Assembly: GCA_964526325.1 (NCBI GenBank)
Contig: CAZGKM010000002.1
Location: 14,725-78,724, forward strand
Reading direction: 5' to 3'
Source: an uncultured Gammaproteobacteria bacterium
GTDB lineage: Bacteria; Patescibacteriota; Patescibacteriia; Patescibacteriales; GWC2-42-12
Length of the DNA stretch: 64,000 bases
Shown here: piece after piece, positions 1,168-63,120 of the stretch
Position numbering within the stretch: position 1 is the first letter of the stretch
How the letters are laid out: each line of letters opens with the position of its first letter
The notes under the pieces: generated by a model
The model's database searches: none
Told to the model about the DNA's origin: nothing
What the model saw: the letters and a program-made list of their open reading frames with translations, nothing else
Program-made: the position numbers and the translations under genes

Positions 1168-1193
1168 ATTATTAACTTATTATTCCCGCGCAG

Positions 1194-1207
1194 GCCTGCC
1201 GGCAGGC
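1194..1207. repeat. GC-rich perfect palindrome GCCTGCCGGCAGGC (family; other copies at 1798-1817, 62535-62549, and a degenerate copy at 5059-5083 inside tsaC)
   Basis: Seen directly. These are GC islands in an otherwise AT-rich sequence. Confidence 0.7.
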
Positions 1208-1224
1208 GGTGATCCAAAAATTAT

Positions 1225-1713: not shown

Positions 1714-1919
1714 AATATTTATAATTTAAAGTTGAAATATCAAAATGCAAAATGATAATGTAAAATTTGAAATTTTTAATTACTTAATTTTTACATTCCT
1801 GCCTGCCGGCAGGCAGGTTAAATTGCCATTTTGATTTTTGCACTTTAAACTTTATATTAATAATTTTACCCTTGCCCCAAAGATTTAACCCCGGGGCAAT
1901 GCGTAATACTATTAATTTT

Positions 1920-4620: not shown

Positions 4621-4737
4621 AATGCTAAATGACAAATGGCAAATGACCAATCAAATCTAAAATCCAAATGTCAAAAAAGTATTAGTAATTTGTCATTTGA
4701 TATTGATTTGACATTTGTCATTGGAAATTTGTCATTT
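4621..4737. repeat. palindromic AATGACAAAT/ATTTGTCATT intergenic element, copy A
   Basis: The left arm (aatgacaaatggcaaatgacc) and right arm (gatttgacatttgtcattggaaatttgtcatt) are inverted. The right 32-mer is identical to copy B. Confidence 0.7.
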
Positions 4738-4745
4738 TAATTCTA

Positions 4746-5357
4746 TTATTTTCTTAAAACCTTAATATTATTAATATCTCTTAAATCCACCAATCTCGAC
4801 GGCTTTGATCTTTTGCATTCGCCCGCATCAATTATTAAATCCGGCAGATATTTAAAATTCTTTTCGAGATTTTGCACATCGCTTAAAGTCTTTTCTCCTT
4901 TTTTATTAAGACTGGTAGAGACAATCGGTAAACCGACTCCATTAATAATTCTAATTAAAAAATCATTATCCGGCAATCTAATGCCTATACTGTTTAAACC
5001 GCCGGTCAATTCAGTCGGTAAATTTGGCCTTCTTTTTAAAATTACGGTAATCGGACCTGGCCCGCCTGCCGGTGAGGCAGGCCAAATTTTTTCCAAATAA
5101 TCCATTTGCTCTAAATTCAAAAAACAATATTTTTTTAACATCTCAAAGTCGCTAATTAAAATGAGCAACGGCTTGGCTCTTTTTTCGCCCTTGATTTTAT
5201 TTATTCTTTTTATGGCTTCGGCGTTTAATGCGTCGCAGCCCAATCCATAAACCGTATCGGTCGGATATGCCAACACTTGCCCGCGTTTTAAATAATCAAT
5301 TATTAAATTGATTTGCCCTTGGGTTATTTTATTTAAATTTACTTTTAAAATTTGCAT
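4746..5357 (-). CDS. tsaC: L-threonylcarbamoyladenylate synthase (YrdC/Sua5 family)
   Basis: YrdC signature …LAYPTDTVYGLGCDA…. The gene contains a GC-rich palindrome-derived in-frame segment (see findings). Confidence 0.8.
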   Translation of the reverse strand: MQILKVNLNKITQGQINLIIDYLKRGQVLAYPTDTVYGLGCDALNAEAIKRINKIKGEKRAKPLLILISDFEMLKKYCFLNLEQMDYLEKIWPASPAGGPGPITVILKRRPNLPTELTGGLNSIGIRLPDNDFLIRIINGVGLPIVSTSLNKKGEKTLSDVQNLEKNFKYLPDLIIDAGECKRSKPSRLVDLRDINNIKVLRK

Positions 5358-5365
5358 AATAAAAA

Positions 5366-5406
5366 TTTGTCATTCCGGCCTCCGAGCCGGAATCCATTTC
5401 CTTATA
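5366..5406. promoter_or_regulatory. conserved leader hairpin element, copy D (TTTGTCATT-CCGGC…GCCGG-AATCCATTTCCTTAT) 8 nt upstream of tsaC start
   Basis: Seen in the sequence. It is related to the element at 9526-9566 by compensatory stem changes. Confidence 0.55.
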
Positions 5407-5409
5407 ATT

Positions 5410-6084
5410 TTATAATAATTTTTTTACAATTAATTCAACGGCTTTAGCGTTTTTCTCAGCCCCGATTTTATAATCAAAATGTCCCGTAGCGCCATTCCCG
5501 TAATTATCAACCGAACTTATTGCAGCTATTGCCATGTCTGATTCAGCAGCCAAAATAACTTCCGAGGCCAAGGTCATGCCGACGACATCGGCGAATTGAG
5601 AAAACATTTTTATCTCGGCCGCGGTTTCAAATCTGGGCCCGGTCGTCTGAAGATATATCCCCTTTTTATAAATAGACAAATTTATCTGGCAGCAAATTTT
5701 TATCAGCAACTCTCTTAATTCTTGAGAAAATACCGGTGTGGTATGAACGATTTTATCGTTGAAAAAAGTCAGATTGCCGTTTAAGCTGATAAAATCATGC
5801 GGTATTAAAAAGCTTGGCACTTTTACGCTCTTTTTCAAGCTGCCTACCGAATTAAAAGAAATAATCTTTTTAACGCCGTAATCGGCTAAAGCTTGAAAAT
5901 ATGCTTTAAAATTAACCCGGTGCGGCGGTAAATTCCCCTGATGACGCTCTATGAAAAAAATATGGCCACAGCGGAAAATAACCGCTTGCCCGTATTTATT
6001 TTTTACTTTTATCGACTTAAAATTATTAAATAAGCCCGATAACTTTAAGCCGTTTCCGCCAATTAGACAAATTTTTTGTTTCAT
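5410..6084 (-). CDS. purine nucleoside / 5'-methylthioadenosine phosphorylase (PNP_UDP_1 family)
   Basis: 224 aa beginning …ICLIGGNG…. An R/H-rich phosphate-binding region and …GMTLASEV… resemble the MTAP/PNP family. Confidence 0.65.
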   Translation of the reverse strand: MKQKICLIGGNGLKLSGLFNNFKSIKVKNKYGQAVIFRCGHIFFIERHQGNLPPHRVNFKAYFQALADYGVKKIISFNSVGSLKKSVKVPSFLIPHDFISLNGNLTFFNDKIVHTTPVFSQELRELLIKICCQINLSIYKKGIYLQTTGPRFETAAEIKMFSQFADVVGMTLASEVILAAESDMAIAAISSVDNYGNGATGHFDYKIGAEKNAKAVELIVKKLL

Positions 6085-6128
6085 AAACAGTTATTTTATC
6101 ATCTTAAATAAAGAAGGTCGGGAGGTTA

Positions 6129-7670
6129 TTATTTTACTTTTTCTCTCTTTAATATTTTCACTGTTCCAATGTCCGCGTCAACTTCCACTAAATCACCGTC
6201 TTTCAATATTTGAGTAGCAAATTTAGTTCCAACAATACACGGTTTTTTCATTTCTCTTGAAACAATAGCTGCATGGCACAAAATACCACCTTCGTCAGTA
6301 ATAAATGCTGATGCTTTACGCATCGCCGGAACATAATCTGGGTTTGTCATCGGACAAACTAATATATCACCTTTTTTAATTTTATTTATATCTAAAAAAA
6401 ATGGTACTACACGAACAATTCCCCTAACTATCCCTAAATATGTTGGCTGACCTTTAATAATATTCGTTTCTTTTATTTTTATATCGGCAAGTAGCTGCAA
6501 ATGGTTGGAATTATAATTAATAAGCTCTATTGTGTGGTCATTTATTCTAATTAAAGAATAATCATTAATTCTTCTTTTAATAACCTTTTTGTCAATTTCC
6601 TTACCTTTAATTAACAGATTAATTTCATCTGCCGATAAATATAAAACTTCAAAAAATGATAAATTATGCTTTACTCCAATTAATTCAAAAAAGGAACGAA
6701 AATTATTACCACAAATTCCAACCGCATCCCAATTGTACATTTTAGCATTTATCATTTCTCTAATTATTTTTACTTCTTCTTTAAGATTCACGCTATGTTT
6801 TTCGGCGTCTTCAATAATATTTTTTATTACAAACTCCTTTTTTCCATTTTCCTCTTTTTGTTTTATTATTCCTTTATCATCGCACAATAATAACGTAATT
6901 AGCTTAAAATAATGATTTAGAGAATAAAAAGGCATATGCCAACACAAAGAGCCCATCCAACCGTAATAATCACGATGCTTTAATATATCATTATAGATTC
7001 CTCGATATTTTGTTTTGATAATATCATGCGGTTGCGATTTTTTAAAAAATTTAATCGCTTTTTTGTCTTTTTTAATTTTATTAACAATTCTATTAAATTC
7101 CAATAGCTCTTTGGCTAAAAATGATTTACTTTTTGGCGCTGTCAAATTTGTTAATATTTCCGTAGGATTGATTTGTTCCTTTTTATTCTTTACATACTCT
7201 TTAATTTTACTTTCCAACATTTTAGCTAGCAAAGAGTCAATCATAATGATGCTATAAGCTAACGCCATGTTGCGTTTTTGATATTGAATAAATTTATTAA
7301 AAATTATGATCTGCTTATTTCTATCATTAATTACTGATTTTTTTACTAATTCAGAAAAGGTTATTGCCTCTTTGCCGGTTTTCATTAATAACTTAATGTA
7401 TTTTGTTAAATAATTAAAACTTTCTTTTTTTATCTTCGACTTAAAATAATTATTAAAATCGTCATAATCTTTTTTCGTAAAATAAATAGTGCCGGATACC
7501 GTTAACATTTTTTTAAACCAAACAGGAAAACCTGTTTCTTTAAATGATTCTTTTTTTGTTGATTCCAATATTAACCAATTCATCAAAAAAGGCGTATTCC
7601 ATTTTCCAGCTTTTATCCAACTCGTCTCTTTAATTTTCTTAATGATTAATTTTTTATCAACTTTTATCAT
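6129..7670 (-). CDS. paralog 1: unknown N-terminal domain fused to C-terminal PEP-utilising-enzyme phosphohistidine swivel (mobile) domain
   Basis: The C-terminus GDILVCPMTNPDYVPAMRKASAFITDEGGILCHAAIVSREMKKPCIVGTKFATQILKDGDLVEVDADIGTV is a canonical PEP-utilisers swivel domain with a catalytic His in the GG(x)(T/C)SHAAI core. The roughly 400-aa N-terminal domain shares a YGWM motif with paralog 3. Confidence 0.6.
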   Translation of the reverse strand: MIKVDKKLIIKKIKETSWIKAGKWNTPFLMNWLILESTKKESFKETGFPVWFKKMLTVSGTIYFTKKDYDDFNNYFKSKIKKESFNYLTKYIKLLMKTGKEAITFSELVKKSVINDRNKQIIIFNKFIQYQKRNMALAYSIIMIDSLLAKMLESKIKEYVKNKKEQINPTEILTNLTAPKSKSFLAKELLEFNRIVNKIKKDKKAIKFFKKSQPHDIIKTKYRGIYNDILKHRDYYGWMGSLCWHMPFYSLNHYFKLITLLLCDDKGIIKQKEENGKKEFVIKNIIEDAEKHSVNLKEEVKIIREMINAKMYNWDAVGICGNNFRSFFELIGVKHNLSFFEVLYLSADEINLLIKGKEIDKKVIKRRINDYSLIRINDHTIELINYNSNHLQLLADIKIKETNIIKGQPTYLGIVRGIVRVVPFFLDINKIKKGDILVCPMTNPDYVPAMRKASAFITDEGGILCHAAIVSREMKKPCIVGTKFATQILKDGDLVEVDADIGTVKILKREKVK

Positions 7671-7674
7671 ACGA

Positions 7675-8562
7675 TTATTCTCGATGTAAAGATAAATAAA
7701 ATCTTTTTAATTCATCTATTTTATTTTGATCTAAATACATCTCACCATTCTGTTGTCTATTTGGATTATCAAATGTTACTACCAAGGGCAGCTTTTTTCC
7801 ATTTTGATCAGTTCTAATTCTAATATTAAACGTTTCGGAAGGATTAAACTCACCGCCTATTTCTTTAAAATCTTTAAAGCCGACTACTTGTTCATTATTA
7901 TTTTTTCTTACTAAGGCATACCGAAGTATAAATTCCATCATACCACCATGCGTTCCTGCCGGAATTAAAACTTTTGAATTTGATTTTAATCTTGCCGCCA
8001 TTTGTTGATAATGATCAATCAGATAGGCAAAAGAACCGGCCATTTCTCTTTTGTAATTTTCAGCTTCTGGCGTATCAAGCAAAACCATATATTCCAATAT
8101 TTTAGCTTGCGCTACTTTAGAAGCTTGCGCTTTTTCCTCGGGTGATAAATCTTTAAAATTTTCTGGTAAAAATGAATTATATACGGCTACATGATCATAT
8201 GGTTTTGGCGAAACAATATTCTCATAATTTAAAATTTTATTTGCTCGAGTATTAAATTTCTTATCGCCAGCAATTTCTTTCGCGTAAATATCTGCGGTTT
8301 CTAACGCTCTGCCCATATTCTTTTCTACTACAGGATTAGGATCTGCTTGAGAACCGATTGCTTTAACAGCGTCATATTCCTCGTTATTAATTCTACTTTT
8401 ATTAGCAGCTTTTTTGGTTTGTTCTCTGCCTAAATCGTTTAAAAATTTTCCATCTTTTTCTCCATGCCGAATTAATTTTAAATCAATAATAACGTCTGCG
8501 CCCTCTGGTTTTTTTATCATTTCGATTGAATTTTGATCCAATGATTCTTGATAATTTTTCAT
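7675..8562 (-). CDS. histidine phosphatase superfamily protein (PGAM-like, RHG motif)
   Basis: An LIRHGEKDG catalytic motif near the N-terminus and a downstream …AGTHGG… second His motif. Confidence 0.55.
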   Translation of the reverse strand: MKNYQESLDQNSIEMIKKPEGADVIIDLKLIRHGEKDGKFLNDLGREQTKKAANKSRINNEEYDAVKAIGSQADPNPVVEKNMGRALETADIYAKEIAGDKKFNTRANKILNYENIVSPKPYDHVAVYNSFLPENFKDLSPEEKAQASKVAQAKILEYMVLLDTPEAENYKREMAGSFAYLIDHYQQMAARLKSNSKVLIPAGTHGGMMEFILRYALVRKNNNEQVVGFKDFKEIGGEFNPSETFNIRIRTDQNGKKLPLVVTFDNPNRQQNGEMYLDQNKIDELKRFYLSLHRE

Positions 8563-8578
8563 GTGTTTATTTTAATAA

Positions 8579-9517
8579 TTACAATGTTGTTATCGGTCTG
8601 GATTGAGTAATATAAAATTTGCCTTTAGCCAACGCCCATTCTATATCCTGGGGCTTTTTATAATGCTTCTCTATATTAGTACAAATTTTGGCTAATTCAA
8701 TAATCTGTCTATCGTTTAGCTTTTGCTTTTTTTGTTTAGCTTTTGGCGCGAACGTATGCTTAACTCCACCACTGGTTTTTCTGATTATCATCATTTTCTG
8801 CGTAGCAATATTTATATCCATTATTGAAAAATTTTGCTTGTCAATAACATAAGCGTCCGGCGTTATTTGACCCGATACTATAGCTTCGCCTAATCCCCAG
8901 CCGGCTTCAATTATCATTTGATTTTTGTCTTGAGTAACCGGATGCACGGTAAAAGCAATACCGGAAACTTCCGACTCTACCATGTATTGCACAACTACGG
9001 CCACGCTTACCTTGGTTTTTAGCAATTTTCTTTCATAGCGATAAAAAATCGCTCGCGGCGTAAAAAGCGATGACCAGCATTTTTTAACGTTTTCTAATAA
9101 ATCTTTTTTGGTTGTATCTAAATAAGTTTCTAATTCTCCGGCCCAAGAAGCTACTGACGAATCTTCGGCTGTGGCGGACGAACGCACGGCCACGAATTTA
9201 GCTTTTAGCTTTTTAAATTCCGATAAAATTTCTTTTTTGATGTCGGCCGGTATAGCGCGATCATGAATTAAATCGCGGATAACATTAGACGCTTTATCTA
9301 CCGAATTAATGTCTTTATAATTTACTTTTTTTAATATGGCTGCGATATCAACATCTAAATCGGTTTCTTCTAAAAAACGATCAAAGGCCGAGACTAAAAC
9401 TACGAAGCCTGGCGGTACCGGCAACTTAGCACCGCTCATCTCGCCTAAACTCGCGCCCTTACCCCCGGCTAAACCTATGTCTTTATATGAAAGTTGTTTA
9501 AAATTTTTAGTATGCAT
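8579..9517 (-). CDS. standalone PPDK_N / PEP-synthase-type ATP-grasp nucleotide-binding domain protein
   Basis: 312 aa. GLAGGKGASLGEM…LPVPPGFVV…AVRSSATAEDS…QDIEWALAKGKFYITQSRPIT matches the ATP/pyruvate-phosphate-dikinase N-terminal domain. No swivel or PEP-binding domain is fused to it. Confidence 0.75.
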   Translation of the reverse strand: MHTKNFKQLSYKDIGLAGGKGASLGEMSGAKLPVPPGFVVLVSAFDRFLEETDLDVDIAAILKKVNYKDINSVDKASNVIRDLIHDRAIPADIKKEILSEFKKLKAKFVAVRSSATAEDSSVASWAGELETYLDTTKKDLLENVKKCWSSLFTPRAIFYRYERKLLKTKVSVAVVVQYMVESEVSGIAFTVHPVTQDKNQMIIEAGWGLGEAIVSGQITPDAYVIDKQNFSIMDINIATQKMMIIRKTSGGVKHTFAPKAKQKKQKLNDRQIIELAKICTNIEKHYKKPQDIEWALAKGKFYITQSRPITTL

Positions 9518-9525
9518 ATAATTCT

Positions 9526-9566
9526 TTTGTCATTGCGGACAATAACCCGCAATCCATTTCCTTATT
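9526..9566. promoter_or_regulatory. conserved leader hairpin element, copy E (TTTGTCATT-GCGG…CCGC-AATCCATTTCCTTATT) 8 nt upstream of the PPDK_N-domain gene start
   Basis: The flanks match copy D. The stem is GCGG/CCGC where D has CCGGC/GCCGG, so the changes are compensatory. Confidence 0.55.
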
Positions 9567-9574
9567 AATTAATT

Positions 9575-10627
9575 TTATTTTATTATTTTAACAATTCCTT
9601 TATTCGCGTCAACTTCCACTAAGTCACCATCGTGCAAAATTTTAGTGGCAATTTTAGTACCGATGATGCAGGGAATTTCCATTTCTCTTGATACGATTGC
9701 CGCATGACAAAGAATTCCACCCTCGTCGGTAATAATTCCTGATACTTTTGAGAGGATGGCTACCATATCAGGATGCGTCATATAAGTAACTAAAATGTCG
9801 CCTTTATTAATTTTCGAATAATCTGACTTATTTAATACCAGTTTAGCTATTCCTTGAGCGTTCCCTTTGTAGGCAACTAAACCACGAACTTCTTTTTTAT
9901 CGGCGGTAATATTTTCTTTTTCAAACTCAATCTTATCTAACACCATCTTTGCTCTACTGCCGAATAGCAATTCCGACTTATAATTTTCTAATTTCATTAC
10001 TGTAAGATTTTCTCTTTGGTCCAATAAACTATCATTAATTTCTTTGTCGCCGGATAATAGTTCGGAAAACTCTTTATTTATATATAGATACAACTTGTTT
10101 AAAGATATATTTTTTGTGTTAGATACCATCTCAAAAAAACCTAATAATTCTTTCCACGCCGAACTACTTTTTACTTCCGCGTCATCGTAAATCCGTTGCA
10201 GTATTTCAATTTCCTTTTCATTCCCTTGAGATTGTTTCAAAAAAGTCGCTAAATTTGAAGAATAAAGAATTATCCCGCGCGACAGTTTATAGCATGCTTC
10301 AAATTCTTTCCATGCGTAAAGATTATTCTCTCCGGCTAATCTTGTACTTGCTTTGTCAAGGTTATTAAAAAATTGCTTCATCTGGCTTATTATTTTTTCA
10401 ATTCCTATTCTATTTATATCATTTTTTATACTTTCGACTTTGGACGTAAAATCATCTGGTTTAATATATTGAGTAGTCATGCCATGACTATAAATCGCTA
10501 ATAAATCTTTTTGTTTAACGGTAAAAGGACGGGGTAACATATTTTTATATCCCTCAAAACGAAGAGTCCGCTCTAAAAGAGTGGATTCTCTTGTTACAAG
10601 CTTCTCCCATTGATTACCGTTTGACAT
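9575..10627 (-). CDS. paralog 2: unknown N-terminal domain plus C-terminal phosphohistidine swivel domain
   Basis: C-terminus GDILVTYMTHPDMVAILSKVSGIITDEGGILCHAAIVSREMEIPCIIGTKIATKILHDGDLVEVDANKGIV. Confidence 0.6.
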   Translation of the reverse strand: MSNGNQWEKLVTRESTLLERTLRFEGYKNMLPRPFTVKQKDLLAIYSHGMTTQYIKPDDFTSKVESIKNDINRIGIEKIISQMKQFFNNLDKASTRLAGENNLYAWKEFEACYKLSRGIILYSSNLATFLKQSQGNEKEIEILQRIYDDAEVKSSSAWKELLGFFEMVSNTKNISLNKLYLYINKEFSELLSGDKEINDSLLDQRENLTVMKLENYKSELLFGSRAKMVLDKIEFEKENITADKKEVRGLVAYKGNAQGIAKLVLNKSDYSKINKGDILVTYMTHPDMVAILSKVSGIITDEGGILCHAAIVSREMEIPCIIGTKIATKILHDGDLVEVDANKGIVKIIK

Positions 10628-10629
10628 AT

Positions 10630-11478
10630 CTATCGTAGATTATTATTAAAATTTTTTTTTGGAATGTTGAATAATTCGGTATCAATTTCACCTTCTTCGT
10701 TGAATTTCAGACGCAATCCTTCTGCGTTGCCAGCCATTTGTATTCCTTTTGGATCCATATTCAATTCGCTCGACATAGCCACCGTTACTCTGGGCGCATG
10801 ACTATTGGCAATCACTACCATGGACTCATCTCCTCTGTCGTTAATTCTTTTTGCCAGTTTTTGCAGACCGGCCTTCGTCTCTTCCATATATCGTCTAGCC
10901 TGAGAATATGTTTCTATTCCCTTGGGGATTTCTTCGTCAGGTGTCAGCATCCAAGCGATTACACCGTCGGCGGCTCCGAGACTTTTTTGATATTCAGGAT
11001 CATCTAATTTTTTTCGAAAATCTGGTGTGGAATCAGTCACTGTACCGATACGGCTTTTTACCCCCGGACCGGCCTTGCGATTTCTTTGTTCGATATCAGC
11101 TGAATTATAGGCAGGGTGAAGAATATATATATTCTGATCGGGGACACCATGCTGGATCAACGCTTCTTTTTCAATTTGCGCCTGTTCCATCGTTCGAGGA
11201 GTCTCGGAGTCATATATACGGAACTTTACGGTCTTGAGTATTTCTTCATTTTGTTGTTTGTTACTACCTACTGGCACAAATTCTTGCACTTGAGTAATTA
11301 TTTTTTCTATAGCTTTCTCTACTTGCCTTTTACCCTTCTCTGTCAATTCCCTACTGACATCACTTTTATTGCTCGTTGTTTCTCCATGTCGTATCAAATA
11401 AACAACTAACGTTAGCGAAATCCGCTCTTTTTTCTTTTCCAGGCCTAATGATTCAATCGCATATTTTTCCCCCGCCAT
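10630..11478 (-). CDS. histidine phosphatase superfamily protein (PGAM-like)
   Basis: VVYLIRHGETTSN catalytic motif plus a downstream …IANSHAPR… second His motif. Confidence 0.55.
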   Translation of the reverse strand: MAGEKYAIESLGLEKKKERISLTLVVYLIRHGETTSNKSDVSRELTEKGKRQVEKAIEKIITQVQEFVPVGSNKQQNEEILKTVKFRIYDSETPRTMEQAQIEKEALIQHGVPDQNIYILHPAYNSADIEQRNRKAGPGVKSRIGTVTDSTPDFRKKLDDPEYQKSLGAADGVIAWMLTPDEEIPKGIETYSQARRYMEETKAGLQKLAKRINDRGDESMVVIANSHAPRVTVAMSSELNMDPKGIQMAGNAEGLRLKFNEEGEIDTELFNIPKKNFNNNLR

Positions 11479-11487
11479 AGTTTTTAT

Positions 11488-12990
11488 TTAAATTATTTTA
11501 TTAATAATGCCTCTGCTCATATCCATTTCGATGTGGTCACCGTCTTTAAAAACAGATGTTGCGATTTTCGTCCCGACGATACATGGTTTTAAAAATTCAC
11601 GAGAAAGTAACGCGGCATGGCTCGTTATCCCGCCTTCATCCGTTACCACGCCACGCGCTTTTTTAATCAAAAAAACAGCGTCGGGCGTAGTCATAGTCGT
11701 TATGATAATATCTTCTTTTTTTACATCTCTCTTCTTGTTTTTAATTAAAATTATTTTTGCACGACCTCTTATAATTTTTTCGTCATTTGGGCGGCTGGCT
11801 ACGGTACCTGCCACAAAATTTAAATTCTTGGTATTTTTATGCGTAAAAATTCCAAATTTTTGGAATCTTTTGTGCGCATCATTTCCGCTCATAAATATTG
11901 GCTTTTTGCCAAAAATTCCCTCATAAAGTAAATATGAGCGACTTCTAATCTTATATAATTTAGCTATCTTTTGCGGGGTGTCAATAAATGATTCAATTTC
12001 CCCTATATCAAAATACTTCAGCGCCATATATTCTACTGATATTTTTTTGGCAAAAGCTTCAAGAAACTGTCTAAAAACCCAATGCAACTTAGAGGTAACA
12101 TATTTGCGGTCATCCTGAAGAATATACATACCTTGAAATGCCTCTACTTGCCTTATGACATCATCCGTCAAGCTATGCCGTTTTATCAAATACTTAATCT
12201 TTTTATTTTTTTCGTCTTCATATTTCTGAAGAGTATAAATTACTTTTTCAATTTCTTTTTTTGTTTTACTCCCCACATTTTCTTCAATTATTTTTCTATA
12301 ATGCCGGGCATCCCAATATTCGTTTGCGTCATAAGAAACCGGCATCCAGCCGTATATTTTCGATAACATTTGCGAAATATTTTCAATATCAAATTTATTT
12401 TTTTTATTAAGTTTCTTCAATGTGGCTATACATATATCCAACTCTTCTTTTAACGCCCAGGATTTTTTTATCGGCCCGATTAAATCATTGATAACTTTTT
12501 GATCGGTTATATATTTTTTAAGCGTTGTTTCCAGGTCATTTTTTATATATTCGGATCCGACAAAATATATAGGCGGACTAACAACATTGTAATCGATCCA
12601 CCTTGACTTGATTCGCTTATAAAGTTTTATAAAGCCTGCTGTATTTTTTGGTAACGTTTTATTTTCAAGCTCATTTATTAACTCAAGAAGTTCGATTTCG
12701 GCTTTTTTATGTTTTTGTTGGAGCTGCTTAAAAAATTGCTTTTTTTTCTTTATTTTTTTAACGATAAAATTCCCGAATCTATCCCAGTCAGCTTGATTAT
12801 ATACGGCAAAAACATCTCCGGAAGGTGTAAAAAAATTAACATAGAATTGAATACCTACTCCATAGGTATCAGCAACTCGCTTGTCAGTAATTGCGCTCAC
12901 ATTCCAGGAAGCCGGGATGGGAAGATATTTTCTCGATCTCTTTAAATGGTAATGATTAGGCAAATTTTGTTTTTTTTCATTTATTAGCAT
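11488..12990 (-). CDS. paralog 3: large N-terminal domain plus C-terminal phosphohistidine swivel domain
   Basis: C-terminus IIITTMTTPDAVFLIKKARGVVTDEGGITSHAALLSREFLKPCIVGTKIATSVFKDGDHIEMD. The N-terminal domain shares a YGWM-containing region with paralog 1. Confidence 0.6.
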   Translation of the reverse strand: MLINEKKQNLPNHYHLKRSRKYLPIPASWNVSAITDKRVADTYGVGIQFYVNFFTPSGDVFAVYNQADWDRFGNFIVKKIKKKKQFFKQLQQKHKKAEIELLELINELENKTLPKNTAGFIKLYKRIKSRWIDYNVVSPPIYFVGSEYIKNDLETTLKKYITDQKVINDLIGPIKKSWALKEELDICIATLKKLNKKNKFDIENISQMLSKIYGWMPVSYDANEYWDARHYRKIIEENVGSKTKKEIEKVIYTLQKYEDEKNKKIKYLIKRHSLTDDVIRQVEAFQGMYILQDDRKYVTSKLHWVFRQFLEAFAKKISVEYMALKYFDIGEIESFIDTPQKIAKLYKIRSRSYLLYEGIFGKKPIFMSGNDAHKRFQKFGIFTHKNTKNLNFVAGTVASRPNDEKIIRGRAKIILIKNKKRDVKKEDIIITTMTTPDAVFLIKKARGVVTDEGGITSHAALLSREFLKPCIVGTKIATSVFKDGDHIEMDMSRGIINKII

Positions 12991-13083
12991 GTTTTTAGTT
13001 ATATCGTTTAGCCAAATTTTAAGCGTTTTTTATACTTTTTACCACCTCTTTATACGCATCCATATTATTAGGCTATGTAACTT

Positions 13084-13872
13084 TTATTGTGCTTCCTCTG
13101 TTTTTAATCTAGCCTTTATCATTACATAAACGGGAGTTTCTTCATATTCTTCCCAAAAATCTTGACCTAATTCTTTTTTGCCTTCTCCAGAAATTTCGCT
13201 ATTAATCCACTCTATTTCAAAACCCGCTTCCTTAAAAATTTTTTCGTAAGTTTCTTTGGTCCAGTAATAATTAGTGAATTCTCCCAGCTTTTTATTTTTA
13301 AAATCTTTAAGCTCAATTTTTACTTCACTGCCTTCCTCGCCTGTTGTTGGCGTCATTTTTACGCCATAAGAATCCGAGCCTTTCATTCTTTCCGGGTTGG
13401 CGATGGAAGCATAAAAAAATCCGCCGCTTTCTAAATTATTTTTAACGCCAGAGATTATTTTCCTCATCATTTCTTCGGAATCGGAATAATGAAGCGCCAT
13501 AGCTCCGGTAATAACATCAAACTTTCCTTTTATTGGTAGATTAGCTATATCACCAATGGCATATTCTATCGACCTATCTGAATTTATTCTTTTTTCTTCC
13601 ACCGCCGCTTTACTTATTAACTTCTCTGAAATATCAACGCCAACTACTTCTTCCGCACCCAAATCTCTTAACAATCTGCTGGAAACTCCCTCGCCGCAAG
13701 CCAAATCCAAGGCTCTTTTTCCTTTTAAATCGCCTAGCAATTTAACCCAAGTATAATCAGAGGTATATTTTCTTAATTCCCTTTTAGTCGCCTGCTCGTA
13801 CCCATCGACTATTTTACTGTATTCTTGTTTGACTTTTTCAGTCGACGGCTTAATTATTTCTATATTTTCCAT
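13084..13872 (-). CDS. class I SAM-dependent methyltransferase
   Basis: Motif I ALDLACGEGVSS and …VVGVDIS…, with a typical Methyltransf_11/25 layout. Confidence 0.7.
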   Translation of the reverse strand: MENIEIIKPSTEKVKQEYSKIVDGYEQATKRELRKYTSDYTWVKLLGDLKGKRALDLACGEGVSSRLLRDLGAEEVVGVDISEKLISKAAVEEKRINSDRSIEYAIGDIANLPIKGKFDVITGAMALHYSDSEEMMRKIISGVKNNLESGGFFYASIANPERMKGSDSYGVKMTPTTGEEGSEVKIELKDFKNKKLGEFTNYYWTKETYEKIFKEAGFEIEWINSEISGEGKKELGQDFWEEYEETPVYVMIKARLKTEEAQ

Positions 13873-13883
13873 AAATTATTAAT

Positions 13884-14963
13884 TTACTTGATTATTTTTA
13901 CCACTCCTTTATCCGCATCCACTTCCACTAAATCACCATTATGCAAAACTTTAGTAGCGATTTTTGTGCCAATAACGCATGGCTTCTTTAATTCCCGTGC
14001 AACTATGGCTGCATGAGAAAGCAACCCTCCGCCGTCAGTTACAATGGCCGCTGCTTTTTTCATTAATAATAAATAATTAGGATTAGTCATACCGGTTACC
14101 AGTATTTCTCCGCTCTTAATGGTTGCACCATAATAATCTAAAATTACTTTGCATCTTCCTTTAACTTTCCCCTTAAACGCCGACGCTCCTTTTAATATCT
14201 TTTTTTCAGAATCGTTAAGCCAAATTTTTTCAATTCTATCCGTATCTATGGCCGATAAAAAATAAATTTTCTTCTTAGTAAAATAGACCGAACTTCTTTT
14301 ATGTCTTAAAAATAATTGCCTTTCATCCGGTATCTTTACATTTTCAATAAAATTCAATAATTCATCCTGAGTCATCATTAAAATATTTTCTTTAGCATAT
14401 CCAGTCTGCTCAGAAATTAATTTAGCAACCTTGGCAAATATTATCGCGTTATTCTGATAAAATGACTCGGAATATTTTCGTGCATTTGCCAATATTTTTT
14501 TAGTTTTTTTATCCAATTCATCGTACATAACATCAAACACGACTTTAGTTGCAACATTATATGCTCCAAATATTTCATATAAAGGATTAAACAATTTTAA
14601 TTTTTTTATAAAATTATTTGGGGATTGACTAATTACTGACATTATCTCGCCAGCAACTTGTTTAAAATCTTTAGCCATCTCACCCGCATAATTATTTTTT
14701 TTTAATTTTTCACCCACATGTTTACCTAAGGCTTGATATTCATTTTCTGGCAATCTGATCGTAGCAATACCTTTTTTATAATCAATAAAAAAACTAGAAA
14801 AAGACAAACCGAATATTCTTTCTAAACCATTAAAATAAACCCTATAGGAATTATAAACTTCAAGCAAAGGAAATGATCCGCTCCAATCAACGTGCCAATC
14901 AATGTCATGTATTTTTTTTATTAACTTATTATTTTTTAATTTTGATTTTCTTCCTATTATCAT
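13884..14963 (-). CDS. paralog 4: unknown N-terminal domain plus C-terminal phosphohistidine swivel domain
   Basis: C-terminus GEILVTGMTNPNYLLLMKKAAAIVTDGGGLLSHAAIVARELKKPCVIGTKIATKVLHNGDLVEVDADKGVVKIIK. Confidence 0.6.
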   Translation of the reverse strand: MIIGRKSKLKNNKLIKKIHDIDWHVDWSGSFPLLEVYNSYRVYFNGLERIFGLSFSSFFIDYKKGIATIRLPENEYQALGKHVGEKLKKNNYAGEMAKDFKQVAGEIMSVISQSPNNFIKKLKLFNPLYEIFGAYNVATKVVFDVMYDELDKKTKKILANARKYSESFYQNNAIIFAKVAKLISEQTGYAKENILMMTQDELLNFIENVKIPDERQLFLRHKRSSVYFTKKKIYFLSAIDTDRIEKIWLNDSEKKILKGASAFKGKVKGRCKVILDYYGATIKSGEILVTGMTNPNYLLLMKKAAAIVTDGGGLLSHAAIVARELKKPCVIGTKIATKVLHNGDLVEVDADKGVVKIIK

Positions 14964-15997
14964 AATTTTAATATTTTAACTACCCCCTTATCTGCATCCA
15001 CCTCCACTAAATCACCGTCATGCAAAACTTTAGTGGCGATTTTTGTGCCGATGACACAAGGCTTCTTAAGTTCGCGCGCCACAATAGCCGCATGACATAA
15101 CATGCCGCCCTCATTAGTTATAATCGCCTTAGACTTTACTATCGCGGGTAGAAAATCTGGCGAGGTCATTTCGGCTACAAGAATTTCATTATTTTTTAAA
15201 TTACCTATATCTTTTTTCTCAATTACCAATCTAACTTTACCCCGAACTGGCGATATTTTTAATACACCTACGCCTTTTAAGTTAATAATTTTATTTGATT
15301 TTATTTCTTTTTCCAATTTAATCTTTTTTCTGACTAATTCTTTCATAAGATCTTTTTCTAAAAAAATCTTACCGTTAAACAAGCCAAAGCCTTTTAATCT
15401 ATTTTTTATCTCTCTCAATTTTTTCAGTGGTAAGCTATGCTTGTCGATTAAAACCGCTTCTTCGGGAGTTACAACATATTTATATCGTGAAAAGTCGGGA
15501 TAATTTTTCTGCCAATATGAGAAAAATACTTCATCCATTTTATCGGAAAATTTTTCTCCCCCTTGCCGTAATACAATAGCTTTTTCTTTTAAATCTTCTT
15601 TAACGCCCTTGAGGTCGGGAATATAAAATATGATGGACATAGCCGACCACCAGCGGATGACACAATTATAATATTTTTTAAATTCTTTAATATTTTTTAT
15701 CTGCCGACCGGTCGTTATAAACGGCCTTAAAAATTTCCATTCCTTATCCAGAGTAGCACTTAATTTATCCAAAAATTTTTTATCACTCTGTGTTTTAGTT
15801 TTTATTTTTTTAAAAATAATTTTAAACTCATCGTTATTATGCCAAATATAAGTACGATTGCCATTTTTTTTTAAAAAAAGCGAGTCTTTTAATTTATAAT
15901 TAAGCCACTTACGAAAACTAAGTTGATTGGACTTATAAAACATGAAAAAATAAAAAAGTGAACGTTCGCGCGAGAAATGTAAAGTTAATTTTGTCAT
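14960..15997 (-). CDS. paralog 5: unknown N-terminal domain plus C-terminal phosphohistidine swivel domain
   Basis: C-terminus NEILVAEMTSPDFLPAIVKSKAIITNEGGMLCHAAIVARELKKPCVIGTKIATKVLHDGDLVEVDADKGVVKIL. It overlaps paralog 4 by 4 nt, indicating operonic coupling. Confidence 0.6.
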   Translation of the reverse strand: MTKLTLHFSRERSLFYFFMFYKSNQLSFRKWLNYKLKDSLFLKKNGNRTYIWHNNDEFKIIFKKIKTKTQSDKKFLDKLSATLDKEWKFLRPFITTGRQIKNIKEFKKYYNCVIRWWSAMSIIFYIPDLKGVKEDLKEKAIVLRQGGEKFSDKMDEVFFSYWQKNYPDFSRYKYVVTPEEAVLIDKHSLPLKKLREIKNRLKGFGLFNGKIFLEKDLMKELVRKKIKLEKEIKSNKIINLKGVGVLKISPVRGKVRLVIEKKDIGNLKNNEILVAEMTSPDFLPAIVKSKAIITNEGGMLCHAAIVARELKKPCVIGTKIATKVLHDGDLVEVDADKGVVKILKL

Positions 15998-18122: not shown

Positions 18123-18524
18123 TTATTTAATTTTTCTTTCGTTAGTTAAAATTATTCTTTTTATATATAATTTTAGGCTTCTAAAATTTACAAAAATACC
18201 CAACTCAAAATCGCTAACTTTTAAATAACTATAAATCTGATCAATAAAATTTTTTGGAATAATATCTACCGCCTTAATTTCTAAAATAATTTTATTTTCA
18301 ATCACAAAATCTGGCCTATATACTCCTAATTTTCTACCAGTTAATTTTGATATTATATTAAAACTAGCTTCTCTTTTATATTTAATATTACTCGCTACCA
18401 AAAACTCTTCAATTATATTGCAATAAACTTTTTCTTTATGCCCTGGACCATAAATTTTTCTAGTTTTTATTAAAATTCCTTGAACTTTATAACTTAAATC
18501 TTTGAATAATATTTTATCCTCCAT
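18123..18524 (-). CDS. GxxExxY-family protein (PD-(D/E)xK fold)
   Basis: …YRPDFVIENKIILEIKAV…QIYSYLKVSDFELGIFVNF matches the GxxExxY family pattern. Confidence 0.6.
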   Translation of the reverse strand: MEDKILFKDLSYKVQGILIKTRKIYGPGHKEKVYCNIIEEFLVASNIKYKREASFNIISKLTGRKLGVYRPDFVIENKIILEIKAVDIIPKNFIDQIYSYLKVSDFELGIFVNFRSLKLYIKRIILTNERKIK

Positions 18525-19297: not shown

Positions 19298-19299
19298 AA

Positions 19300-19405
19300 A
19301 AAATGACAAATGACTAATTTCCAATGTCAAATAAAATTCAAAACGTAAATATTAAAATAAAATTATATTTACATTTGCCATTTGACATGGGAAATTTGTC
19401 ATTAT
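19300..19405. repeat. palindromic AATGACAAAT/ATTTGTCATT intergenic element, copy C
   Basis: aaaatgacaaatgactaatttccaatgtcaaat … atttgccatttgacatgggaaatttgtcatt. Confidence 0.6.
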
Positions 19406-19407
19406 TC

Positions 19408-44222: not shown

Positions 44223-44231
44223 TCAACTGAA

Positions 44232-44340
44232 AATGACTAATGTCAAATGACAAATCAAATCCTAATATCAAAAAATTAATTAATTTTTTATTTAGTCATT
44301 TGACATTGATTTGACATTTGTCATTGGAAATTTGTCATTA
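44232..44340. repeat. palindromic AATGACAAAT/ATTTGTCATT intergenic element, copy B
   Basis: aatgactaatgtcaaatgacaaatcaaat … tagtcatttgacattgatttgacatttgtcattggaaatttgtcatt. The 32-mer is identical to copy A. Confidence 0.7.
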
Positions 44341-44350
44341 AAAATATTTT

Positions 44351-62515: not shown

Positions 62516-62563
62516 CTTTTGTCATTCCGGCGAAGGCCTGCCGGCAGGCAGTTTGAGGATGAC
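62516..62563. promoter_or_regulatory. related palindromic leader element, copy F (tttgtcattccggc-gaaggcctgccggcaggcag-…gatgacaaa) upstream of porG
   Basis: Shares TTTTGTCATTCCGGC with copy D and contains the GCCTGCCGGCAGGC palindrome. It ends 11 nt before the porG ATG. Confidence 0.5.
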
Positions 62564-62574
62564 AAATAAAAAAT

Positions 62575-63120
62575 ATGATACAAATCAGAATTCACGGCCG
62601 CGGCGGCCAGGGCGTAGTAACTGCCGCGGAATTAATCGCGATTGCCGCTTTCAAAAACGGAAAGCAAGCCCAAGCTTTTCCTTCTTTTGGAGTAGAAAGA
62701 ACCGGCGCTCCGGTAGAGTCATATGTTAGAATTGACGACCAGCCGATTATTTTAAGAGAACAAATTAGCAAGCCGGATATCTTAATCATTCAAGATGCCA
62801 CCTTGCTTGAAAGCAATGACTTAGCTAAAGGCGCTGATAAAAAAACTATTGCCATTATTAACACGGCAAAAACTAAACAGAGCTTAAAGATAAGCCTGGC
62901 TCAAGCCAATATTTATACGATTGATGCCACTAAAATCGCCTTGGAAATAATCGGTAAAAATATCGTTAATACTGTTATTTTGGGCGCTTTTGCCAAAATA
63001 AGCGGTCTAGTTGATTTAGTTTCGCTTAAACAGGCGATTGAAGAAAAATTTTCCGGCAATCAAAATTTAATCGATAAAAATATAAAAGCCATAGAACAAG
63101 CTTACCGGAATAATTTTTAA
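62575..63120 (+). CDS. porG: pyruvate/2-oxoacid:ferredoxin oxidoreductase gamma subunit
   Basis: MIQIRIHGRGGQGVVTAAELIAIAAF… is the classic POR_N gamma-subunit start. Confidence 0.75.
   Translation: MIQIRIHGRGGQGVVTAAELIAIAAFKNGKQAQAFPSFGVERTGAPVESYVRIDDQPIILREQISKPDILIIQDATLLESNDLAKGADKKTIAIINTAKTKQSLKISLAQANIYTIDATKIALEIIGKNIVNTVILGAFAKISGLVDLVSLKQAIEEKFSGNQNLIDKNIKAIEQAYRNNF

What the first reader, a model, noticed from the sequence alone, without database searches (positions are those of the whole stretch)
5366..5406. Conserved hairpin leader motif with compensatory stem changes, 8 nt upstream of tsaC and of the PPDK_N gene (second copy at 9526-9566; related copy at 62516-62563)
In mRNA orientation, copies D and E read UAAGGAAAUGGAUU-[stem-loop]-AAUGACAAA-8nt-AUG. 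The stem is CCGGC/GCCGG in D and GCGG/CCGC in E. The base-pair swaps preserve pairing while the flanks stay identical. That is the signature of a selected RNA (or DNA cruciform) structure rather than a chance repeat. It sits where a Shine-Dalgarno would normally be. The AAGGAAA stretch lies upstream of the stem, so folding could bring it next to the AUG. Copy F, upstream of porG, shares the TTTTGTCATTCCGGC half.
Basis: seen in the sequence. Interest (0 to 1): 0.58.

Follow-up and report, generated by a model that had tools for sequence, protein, structure and literature searches.

The report
Dispersed DNA hairpin repeat, not leader
The two "leader hairpins" are copies of a short DNA hairpin repeat found scattered through many bacterial phyla (the dRS3/NTS/"Ssn-related motif" family, which small GIY-YIG nucleases cut as single-stranded DNA), so they are ordinary repeats inserted into tiny gene spacers and not a translation control element.

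Summary
Copies D (5366-5406) and E (9526-9566) share identical flanks, TTTGTCATT and AATCCATTTCCTTAT, around different GC stems. Each lies 8 nt from a minus-strand start codon.

The interpretation does not hold. On the + strand both read GTC-ATT[stem-loop-stem]AAT-CCA. This is the architecture of the Neisseria NTS/dRS3 repeat and its generalisation, the Ssn-related motif (PMC11893778).

- **Spread.** 98 had stems of 5 bp or more, although only S-S ends were required.
- **Close relatives.** A metagenome scan with the full D/E flanks found 40 copies with over 20 different stems.
- **Independent model.** A covariance model built without D or E scores them at 37.6 and 32.0 bits, and nothing else in the window.
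- **Position.** Copies occur in both orientations relative to transcription (25 sense, 15 antisense), after stop codons, in inverted pairs and in a 7-unit array.
- **Orthologues.** Some orthologous junctions lack them.
- **Partner gene.** A Patescibacteria GIY-YIG gene is flanked by such hairpins.
- **Shine-Dalgarno.** Most genes in the window have no Shine-Dalgarno sequence.

Copy F is a degenerate chimera. Verdict: a new member of a known repeat family, of low interest.

The parts
5365..5406 (+). Copy D: an intact SRM/NTS-type hairpin repeat, forward orientation on the + strand (antisense to tsaC). The 5' flank is TTTGTCATT (GTC at 5369-5371). Stem arms are 5372-5379 and 5386-5393, with the loop at 5380-5385. 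The 3' flank is CCATTTCCTTAT (5394-5405). It fills the 52-nt gap between the PNP_UDP_1 gene (5410..6084, -) and tsaC (4746..5357, -).
   Evidence: sequence, fold. Model R2, built without window sequences: 37.6 bits, E 7e-8, + strand; the reverse strand scores only 15.6 bits. An identical hairpin, CCGGCCTCCGAGCCGG, sits after ftsZ in Parcubacteria contigs.
9525..9566 (+). Copy E: an intact SRM/NTS-type hairpin repeat with the same orientation and flanks as D. Stem arms are 9532-9538 and 9547-9553, with the loop at 9539-9546. It fills the 57-nt gap between a PEP-utilizers gene (9575..10627, -) and the PPDK_N gene (8579..9517, -).
   Evidence: R2: 32.0 bits, E 2e-6. The stem belongs to the widespread GCGG(G/A)CTTGA(C/T)CCGC subtype. 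It is absent at the orthologous junction in L208.
62518..62566 (+). Copy F: a degenerate or chimeric relative. It starts with the first 18 nt of an SRM (GTCATTCCGGCGAAGGCC), continues with the GC palindrome GCCTGCCGGCAGGC (62536-62549), and ends in ATGACAAA 8 nt before porG (62575..63120, +). Overall it is an inverted repeat, TTTGTCAT...ATGACAAA.
   Evidence: (family D16). Not detected by R1 or R2. porG = PF01558.
1180..1216 (+). A probable decayed SRM derivative: TTATTCCCGCGCAGGC-CTGCCGGCAGGC-GGTGATCCA. It lacks GTC and carries the same GC palindrome in its loop.
   Evidence: (D16), by inspection only. It falls below the model thresholds. The L208 orthologue of D has a CCTGCC...GGCAGG hairpin nested in its loop.
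1793..1817 (+). A probable decayed relative: ACATT-CCTGCCTGCC/GGCAGGCAGG, a 10-bp perfect palindrome.
   Evidence: (D16), by inspection only.

Best explanation
D and E are two copies of a dispersed DNA hairpin repeat of the dRS3/NTS/Ssn-related-motif (SRM) kind. Its layout is an oriented 5' flank (T)GTC, an imperfect palindrome that starts ATT and ends AAT, and a 3' flank CCA.

Shown here:
- D and E fit a sequence-plus-structure model of the family that was built only from other genomes.
- The family occurs in more than 15 phyla with the same flanks and many different complementary stems.
- Copies are almost always intergenic and lie in either orientation.
- Copies are gained or lost at orthologous junctions.
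- In a Patescibacteria genome, such hairpins flank a 98-aa single-domain GIY-YIG gene on both sides.

Inferred:
- The element works at the DNA level. When the + strand is single-stranded (during replication, transformation or repair) it folds into the hairpin. A small GIY-YIG Ssn-type nuclease then binds it and cuts a few bases 5' of GTC, as shown for Neisseria SsnA (PMC11893778).
- Copies spread or are exchanged between sites by a process linked to that protein or to recombination between copies.
- D and E landed in AT-rich spacers of about 10-17 nt in a compact genome. That is why both ends lie within 8-20 nt of a coding boundary.
- Their different stems reflect two widespread subtypes of the family (CCGGCCTCCGAGCCGG and GCGGRCTTGAYCCGC), not compensatory evolution of one leader.
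- Any effect on the tsaC or PPDK_N mRNA (an intercistronic stem-loop) would be incidental.
For: **Family membership**
- 98 of the 120 have at least 5 Watson-Crick pairs next to ATT/AAT. About 1 in 128 would be expected by chance given the S constraint.
- A viral-contig scan without the stem constraint gave 47 matches, of which one had a stem.
- On the 52-sequence alignment, 99.8% of cells are paired and 5 of 8 pairs show changes on both sides. Versions slid by 1-3 columns give 14-55% paired.
- Model R2, built without window sequences, scores D at 37.6 bits and E at 32.0 bits on the + strand only, and nothing else in 64 kb.
- 64 extra copies not selected by the pattern show C, A and T/G after AATC and then no conservation. 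This matches the NTS consensus ...GGGAATCYRG (PMC11893778).

**The exact D/E subfamily**
- 40 metagenome copies carry GTCATT...AATCCATTTCCTTAT with more than 20 different stem-loops, all on low-GC contigs.

**Not tied to a gene start**
- Between co-directional genes there are 25 sense and 15 antisense copies.
- The D-type hairpin sits 10 nt after the ftsZ stop in sense orientation, followed by a canonical terminator.
- There is an inverted pair between atpH and atpA in L210.
- There is a 7-unit same-orientation array with no genes in L170.

**Presence and absence at orthologous junctions**
- E is missing at the L208 junction (8-nt gap, PPDK_N 82% identical).
- The tsaC-proximal copy is present in L208 and L211 with other hairpins, and absent in L209 and L210.

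**Partner protein in the phylum**
- P0185 is a 98-aa PF01541 protein from a Patescibacteria MAG. It is flanked by five model hits within 600 bp.

**Other checks**
- No Rfam family matches.
- Most genes in the window lack a Shine-Dalgarno sequence.
Against: - No GIY-YIG gene lies in the 64-kb window or in the roughly 160 fetched repeat loci. The rest of the source genome could not be read.
- D and E each need 2 substitutions to fit the strict published SRM search string. Only 27 of 105 distinct pattern hits fit it.
- For Neisseria SsnA, changing the stem sequence while keeping the hairpin abolished activity (PMC11893778). D and E may therefore not both be substrates of one enzyme.
Membership of P0185 in cd10448 was not checked.
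- In this lineage, three different gene starts (tsaC, tatD in L209/L211, PPDK_N) all have the copy in the antisense orientation. AATGACAAA lies 5-9 nt before the ATG and a TAAGGAAN-TGGATT flank lies upstream. This is a regularity that compact spacers explain only loosely.
- How these repeats multiply is not known, even for Neisseria.
Confidence: 0.78

Rival explanations
1. The minus-strand transcript carries a cis-acting leader in which the hairpin brings the upstream UAAGGAAA (Shine-Dalgarno-like) next to the AUG, or otherwise tunes translation of tsaC and PPDK_N. This would be a split ribosome-binding site, as in phage T4 genes 25 and 38.
For: - The hairpin and flanks are conserved, and the spacing is 8 nt in D, E and F.
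- In relatives, TAAGGAA(C/G)TGGAT(T)-hairpin-(A)ATGACAAA lies 5-7 nt before the tatD ATG, and GGATT-hairpin-AATGACAAA lies 9 nt before the tsaC ATG.
- UAAGGA is complementary to the usual 16S 3' end (from general knowledge).
Against: - The family-wide conserved, asymmetric flanks read on the other strand. The model scores 37.6 bits on + against 15.6 bits on -.
- Copies with the identical flanks occur in sense orientation after stop codons, in arrays and in inverted pairs.
- Orthologous junctions lack the element, with no replacement.
- Most genes here have no Shine-Dalgarno sequence at all.
- With the stem closed, AAGGA is still about 19 nt from the AUG, outside the usual 5-9 nt range.
- The RNA fold of E is no better than shuffles, z = -0.94.
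Confidence: 0.05
2. The hairpins are REP/REPIN-type elements mobilised by a RAYT (an IS200/IS605-like Y1 transposase), not Ssn targets. Under this view the GIY-YIG association is secondary.
For: - The same Neisseria 21-mer, ATTCCCGCGCAGGCGGGAATC, is treated as the REPIN of a Group-2 RAYT in bioRxiv 10.1101/2021.07.10.451892.
- Inverted pairs (L210, L212) and BIME-like arrays (L170) exist.
Against: - No Y1-transposase gene was seen in any fetched locus, although no systematic search was made.
- The only protein found flanked by the hairpins here is a GIY-YIG.
- PMC11893778 reports biochemical cleavage by SsnA and a gene-repeat association across phyla.
Confidence: 0.1
3. The copies have been co-opted at the RNA level as intercistronic stem-loops. 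They would protect the upstream message from 3' exonucleases, mark a processing site, or (on the + strand) stop antisense transcription, much as E. coli REP sequences do.
For: - Both sit between co-transcribed-looking genes.
- The terminator-like scan flags D and E on the + strand, as a hairpin followed by CCATTTCCTT.
Against: - There is no U-run after the hairpin on the mRNA strand.
- The sense copy after ftsZ is followed by a separate canonical terminator.
- Orientation is not fixed.
- Nothing here tests RNA stability.
Confidence: 0.07

Closest known systems
Neisseria Transformation Sequence (NTS) / Ssn-related motif (SRM), the target of SsnA-family GIY-YIG ssDNA nucleases (PMC11893778)
   Same: - The layout matches: (C/T)GTC + ATT-stem-loop-stem-AAT + CC(A)(T/G).
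- The positions shown to matter for SsnA (the three bases 5' of the palindrome and the C just 3' of it) are present in D and E.
- Copies are intergenic, occur in many copies across phyla, and form clusters.
- They flank a small single-domain GIY-YIG gene, seen here in a Patescibacteria MAG.
   Different: - The stems are CCGGC and GCGG instead of CCCGCG, with longer loops.
- D and E miss the strict published SRM string by 2 positions each.
- They carry an extra conserved 3' flank, TTTCCTTAT, and a 5' TTT, shared by a low-GC (CPR-like) subfamily.
- No ssn gene lies in the window.
- The paper does not mention Patescibacteria.
dRS3 repeats / neisserial intergenic mosaic elements (ATTCCC-N8-GGGAAT)
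   Same: The core is the same ATT..AAT-bounded palindrome. dRS3 is the palindromic core of the NTS (PMC11893778).
   Different: dRS3 is defined as ATTCCC...GGGAAT in Neisseria. It is known there as a phage integration target and a marker of variable genes. D has ATTCCGG and E has ATTGCGG.
REP/REPIN-RAYT systems and BIME clusters
   Same: These are also short oriented hairpin repeats in intergenic DNA, occurring as singlets, inverted pairs and arrays. They are thought to act as single-stranded DNA hairpins bound by a dedicated protein.
   Different: Classical REPs have a GTAG-type 5' tetranucleotide and are linked to Y1 transposases. No such gene was seen here.
Split ribosome-binding sites bridged by a hairpin (phage T4 genes 25 and 38)
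   Same: A hairpin lies between a Shine-Dalgarno-like sequence and the AUG.
   Different: Here the residual distance is too long. The host mostly does not use Shine-Dalgarno sequences, and the element is a dispersed repeat found in both orientations.

Membership tests
NTS/SRM (Ssn-related motif) hairpin repeats | An oriented motif: GTC immediately 5' of a palindrome and C immediately 3' of it (the bases critical for SsnA cleavage and binding) | tested here: met
   D is TGTC-ATTCCGGC...GCCGGAAT-CCA and E is TGTC-ATTGCGG...CCGCAAT-CCA. The requirements come from PMC11893778.
NTS/SRM (Ssn-related motif) hairpin repeats | Match to the published degenerate search string HGTCWYN(0-2)YYVSBRHN(0-5)WNVSBRGN(0-2)RNCYNB | tested here: not met
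   D and E each need 2 substitutions. Only 27 of 105 distinct family-pattern hits match strictly and 28 more match with 1 substitution, so the string is narrower than the family seen here.
NTS/SRM (Ssn-related motif) hairpin repeats | Fit to a sequence-plus-structure profile of family members from other genomes | tested here: met
   Model R2 (48 seeds, none from the window): D 37.6 bits, E 32.0 bits, on the forward strand only, with no other hit in the window.
NTS/SRM (Ssn-related motif) hairpin repeats | Forms a hairpin as single-stranded DNA | tested here: met
   DNA-parameter folds give -8.0 and -6.3 kcal/mol, z = -3.5 and -3.6. This is a prediction only.
NTS/SRM (Ssn-related motif) hairpin repeats | Multi-copy, mostly intergenic, enriched over chance in the genome | tested here: inconclusive
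   Only 64 kb of the genome could be read. It holds 2 intact copies and 3 decayed ones, all intergenic. In low-GC loci from other genomes, about 50 of 55 copies are intergenic.
NTS/SRM (Ssn-related motif) hairpin repeats | The genome encodes a small single-domain GIY-YIG (cd10448) Ssn homologue, often flanked by the repeats | tested here: inconclusive
   None is present in the window. One was found in another Patescibacteria MAG: P0185, 98 aa, PF01541, with five flanking hairpins. The cd10448 assignment was not checked, and NCBIfam gives no specific family.
NTS/SRM (Ssn-related motif) hairpin repeats | Cut as ssDNA, on the forward strand only, by the cognate Ssn | not testable with these tools
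   This needs biochemistry.
REP/REPIN-RAYT | Association with a RAYT (Y1 transposase) gene flanked by the repeat | not tested
   No systematic search was made. No such gene appears among the Pfam calls of the fetched contigs.
Cis-regulatory RNA leader (any Rfam family) | Match to a curated RNA family, or fixed orientation and position relative to the regulated gene | tested here: not met
   Rfam gives no hit at the gathering threshold and only E>1 noise. Orientation is mixed, 25 sense to 15 antisense.

The most novel reading that the evidence does not exclude
In this Patescibacteria lineage, a subfamily of the repeat carries the extra flank CCANTTCCTTA(T). It may have been co-opted, or preferentially retained, in the antisense orientation directly upstream of start codons in genes that lack a Shine-Dalgarno sequence. 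Examples are tsaC, PPDK_N and tatD in relatives, each with AAUGACAAA 5-9 nt before the AUG. In that position the transcribed hairpin plus UAAGGAA would act as a 5'-proximal RNA element. A related reading is that the repeat marks the recombination boundary where the ~10.8-kb PEP-utilizer/PPDK_N/PNP gene block entered next to tsaC.
Probability: 0.07. Interest if true: 0.55.

Novelty: new member of a known kind. Interest (0 to 1): 0.2.

Why it matters
For annotation, the point is that conserved flanks with 'compensatory' stems can come from a family of DNA hairpin repeats and not from a regulatory RNA. The result also extends the recently described Ssn-related hairpin repeats, and their GIY-YIG-flanking arrangement, to reduced Patescibacteria (CPR) genomes. 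The source paper does not discuss these genomes, and here the repeats must squeeze into spacers of a few tens of bases. It does not open a new biological question.

Tried and rejected
- **Rfam.** Scans of the whole window (gathering threshold) and of the D region (E up to 10) found nothing.
- **Literature.** A search for the peptide strings these repeats produce when translated (RFRGND, AFAGMT and others) found no papers. A DNA-string search led to the two relevant papers.
- **Upstream AUG.** I considered whether the AUG inside GGAAAUGG starts a small ORF or the real gene. It is out of frame with tsaC, it sits 1 nt after the Shine-Dalgarno-like core, and the base is A, C or G in relatives. Rejected.
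- **Intrinsic terminator for the upstream genes.** There is no U-run on the mRNA strand. Rejected.
- **Promoter inside the element.** No convincing -35/-10 pair lies at D or E, and promoter-like sites are barely above the shuffle level in this AT-rich DNA.
- **GIY-YIG search.** Regex and Pfam searches of the window and about 160 loci found none.
- **Solved structure for the Patescibacteria GIY-YIG.** No meaningful match.
- **Is TTTCC(TTA) conserved family-wide?** No. Unselected copies lose conservation after AATCCA(T/G). It is a subfamily trait.
- **Model seeds.** The first covariance model included D and E among its seeds. I rebuilt it without them.

Full report
**Observation**

- On the minus strand, D reads ATAAGGAAATGGATT-CCGGC-TCGGAG-GCCGG-AATGACAAA, then 8 nt, then the ATG of a Sua5/YciO/YrdC (tsaC) gene.
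- E reads ATAAGGAAATGGATT-GCGG-GTTATTGT-CCGC-AATGACAAA, then 8 nt, then the ATG of a PPDK_N gene.
- The 14-mer AATCCATTTCCTTA occurs exactly twice in the window.
- The stems extend through ATT/AAT to 8 and 7-8 pairs. They differ at two pairs, and both stay paired.
- Each element almost fills a short gap (52 and 57 nt) between co-directional minus-strand genes.
- F shares only TTTGTCATTCCGGCGAAGGCC. It then runs into a GC palindrome and ends in ATGACAAA, again 8 nt before an ATG (porG, PF01558).

**What it is**

Read on the + strand, both copies are (T)GTC-ATT[stem-loop-stem]AAT-CCA.

I scanned one genome per bacterial species for GTCATT-SSS-N(4-24)-SSS-AATCCATTTCC. They came from Bradyrhizobium, Adiutrix, Pirellulales, Nitrospirota, Chloroflexota, Bacteroidota, Spirochaetota, Elusimicrobiota, Patescibacteria and more.

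The pattern only required three C/G bases at each end of the gap. Even so, 98 of the 120 have at least five Watson-Crick pairs, against about 1 in 128 expected. As a control, a viral-contig scan with the same flanks and no stem constraint gave 47 matches, of which one had a stem. That contig carried two adjacent elements of this kind.

On an alignment of 52 distinct copies, 99.8% of cells pair and five of eight pairs show changes on both sides. Slid controls give 14-55% pairing. Those seeds were chosen for having stems, so the unbiased figure is the 98 of 120.

A covariance model built only from other genomes scores D at 37.6 bits and E at 32.0 bits, both on the + strand. Nothing else in the window reaches significance. 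The reverse strand of D reaches only 15.6 bits, through the palindromic core. Rfam has no matching family.

**Literature**

A full-text search for the DNA strings found PMC11893778. The paper reports the following.

- It defines the Neisseria Transformation Sequence, CGTCATTCCCGCGMAVGCGGGAATCYRG, which contains the dRS3 palindrome. It generalises this to the 'Ssn-related motif' (SRM).
- A 94-aa single-domain GIY-YIG protein, SsnA, binds the hairpin and cuts a few bases upstream. It does so only on single-stranded DNA of the forward strand, not on dsDNA or RNA.
- The three bases 5' of the palindrome and the C just 3' of it matter most.
- ssn genes are often flanked by the repeats.
- Only 2% of Neisseria copies lie in genes.

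A second paper treats the same Neisseria 21-mer as a REPIN of a RAYT transposase.

D and E have the GTC and the C in place. Unselected extra copies in the fetched loci are conserved as AATC-C-A-(T/G) and no further, as in the NTS consensus. D and E miss the strict published SRM string by two positions each. Only 27 of 105 distinct pattern hits fit it, so the string is narrower than the family seen here.

**The D/E subfamily**

A metagenome scan for GTCATT...AATCCATTTCCTTAT returned 40 copies on low-GC, CPR-like contigs, with more than 20 different stem-loops.

- D's hairpin, CCGGCCTCCGAGCCGG, recurs 10 nt after the ftsZ stop codon of Parcubacteria contigs. There it is in the same orientation as transcription and is followed by a canonical terminator.
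- E belongs to the common GCGGRCTTGAYCCGC subtype.
- A hybrid, GCGGCCTCCGAGCCGC, also exists.

The D/E stem difference therefore reflects two widespread subtypes, not compensatory change in one leader.

**Tests of the leader idea**

1. **Orientation.** Between co-directional genes I counted 25 copies in sense orientation and 15 in antisense.
2. **Position.** Distances to the next start codon range from 5 to hundreds of nt. Copies also form an inverted pair between atpH and atpA (L210) and a seven-unit same-orientation array with no genes (L170).
3. **Orthologues.** The window comes from an 81-kb Patescibacteria contig, and four relatives were fetched.
   - In L208 (TsaC and PPDK_N 82% identical), the PEP-utilizer/PPDK_N gap is 8 nt with no element.
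   - The tsaC-proximal copy in L208 has a different, longer hairpin plus a 39-nt GC insert.
   - L211 has GGATT-GCGGGTCAAGCCCGC-AATGACAAA 9 nt before tsaC.
   - L209 and L210 have 9-nt and 3-nt gaps and no element.
4. **Shine-Dalgarno use.** Most genes in the window have plain AT-rich upstream regions and no Shine-Dalgarno sequence. With the stem closed, AAGGA would still be about 19 nt from the AUG.
5. **RNA fold.** The RNA fold of E is no better than shuffles (z = -0.94).

**Partner protein**

No GIY-YIG gene lies in the window or in the repeat loci.

It found thousands of proteins of about 95 aa with PF01541, including one named for a Patescibacteria MAG. On its contig the 98-aa gene has a forward and a reverse hairpin just upstream and three more just downstream. 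This is the repeat-gene-repeat arrangement the paper describes. I could not confirm that this protein belongs to cd10448, and NCBIfam and the PDB gave nothing specific.

**Mechanism**

Shown:
- family membership by sequence and structure
- distribution across phyla
- mixed orientation
- gain or loss at orthologous sites
- flanking of a GIY-YIG gene within the phylum

Inferred:
- The hairpin acts as single-stranded DNA recognised by an Ssn-type nuclease.
- Copies spread or are exchanged by an unknown route.
- D and E sit 8 nt from start codons because they landed in spacers of roughly 10-17 nt.

**Loose ends**

- In this lineage the copies next to tsaC, PPDK_N and (in relatives) tatD are all antisense. 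AATGACAAA lies 5-9 nt before the ATG and a TAAGGAAN-TGGATT flank lies upstream.
- More generally, the GTCATT end often lies 7-12 nt from an ORF boundary in either orientation.
- Compact spacers probably explain this, but I did not model it.

**Verdict**

The feature is genuine but ordinary. It is a new member (a low-GC, CPR-type subfamily) of a known hairpin-repeat family. The translational-leader reading is not supported.

Noticed in passing
window 4621-4745, 19298-19407, 44223-44350: There are three copies (67-88% alike) of an AT-rich inverted-repeat element of about 110-125 bp, built from AAATGACnAAT / ATTTGTCATT units. Each folds into one long hairpin (DNA z-scores -3.9 to -6.0) and each sits in an intergenic gap next to a gene start. 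They share the word TTTGTCATT with the 5' flank of D, E and F. Logan contigs of the same organism end inside one of them. In relatives the tsaC-tatD gap holds an SRM hairpin or a CCCCC hairpin instead.
   Followed up: partly
window 1180-1216, 1793-1817, 62536-62549: The GC palindrome GCCTGCCGGCAGGC (or CCTGCCTGCCGGCAGGCAGG) occurs three times, each time embedded in ATTCC...-type flanks. These look like decayed or chimeric derivatives of the hairpin repeat. The L208 orthologue of copy D has a CCTGCC...GGCAGG hairpin nested in its loop.
   Followed up: partly
window 5410-15997: This is a block of about 10.6 kb holding five PEP-utilizers-domain genes, a stand-alone PPDK_N gene, a methyltransferase and a PNP_UDP_1 gene. 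The 3' ends of four of these genes form a 193-nt repeat family (6126, 9557, 13866, 14945). The block lies between cvpA and tsaC. In three relatives (L209-L211) cvpA abuts tsaC directly, so the block is an insertion or a variable island. Its first gene starts ATGACAAAA (15990), the same word that ends copy D at the other boundary.
   Followed up: partly
whole window (upstream of about 56 genes): Nearly all genes lack a Shine-Dalgarno sequence and have AT-rich upstream regions. Only a few (for example 34421, 38836, 33885) have GGAGG-like sites.
   Followed up: partly
L212 4900-5500 (Patescibacteria MAG GCA_043798585.1); also L213, L214: A 98-aa single-domain GIY-YIG gene is flanked by five hairpin repeats with three different stems, next to T4SS-like, Fic and ClpB-like genes. 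The 95-aa family is 70-80% identical across very distant phyla, which suggests horizontal spread.
   Followed up: partly
L170 6090-6380 (JGI Ga0265296_1000941): A tandem array of seven hairpin repeats in one orientation, mixing ATTCC/ATTGC stems with the longer GTCATTGCGAG...GCAATC class. Several carry the ATAAGGAAATGGATT flank of D and E.
   Followed up: partly
genome and metagenome loci: The GTCATT end of the repeat lies 7-12 nt from an ORF boundary unusually often. This holds after stop codons in sense copies (ftsZ and others) and before start codons in antisense copies. It may reflect compact spacers or a target preference, and it is not explained.
   Followed up: no
window 18123-18524: A small PD-(D/E)XK nuclease gene (PF13366, PDDEXK_3) lies about 770 bp from one of the AT-rich palindromes.
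   Followed up: no
window 29219-29266 and 29297-29597 vs 31051-31351: A perfect 24-nt tandem duplication (CCTCCGCCGCCCGGAGGTACGGTG x2) lies near the 5' end of a 1781-aa ORF. Stretches of about 300 nt (73-89% identical) are shared between that ORF and the neighbouring 588-aa ORF, so the N-terminal regions are paralogous.
   Followed up: no
L208 5853-5891: In the orthologue of copy D, a 39-nt GC-rich hairpin (CCGCGCCCGC...GCGGGCGG) is inserted between ATAAGGAAATG and GGATT. It splits the flank that D and E share.
   Followed up: no
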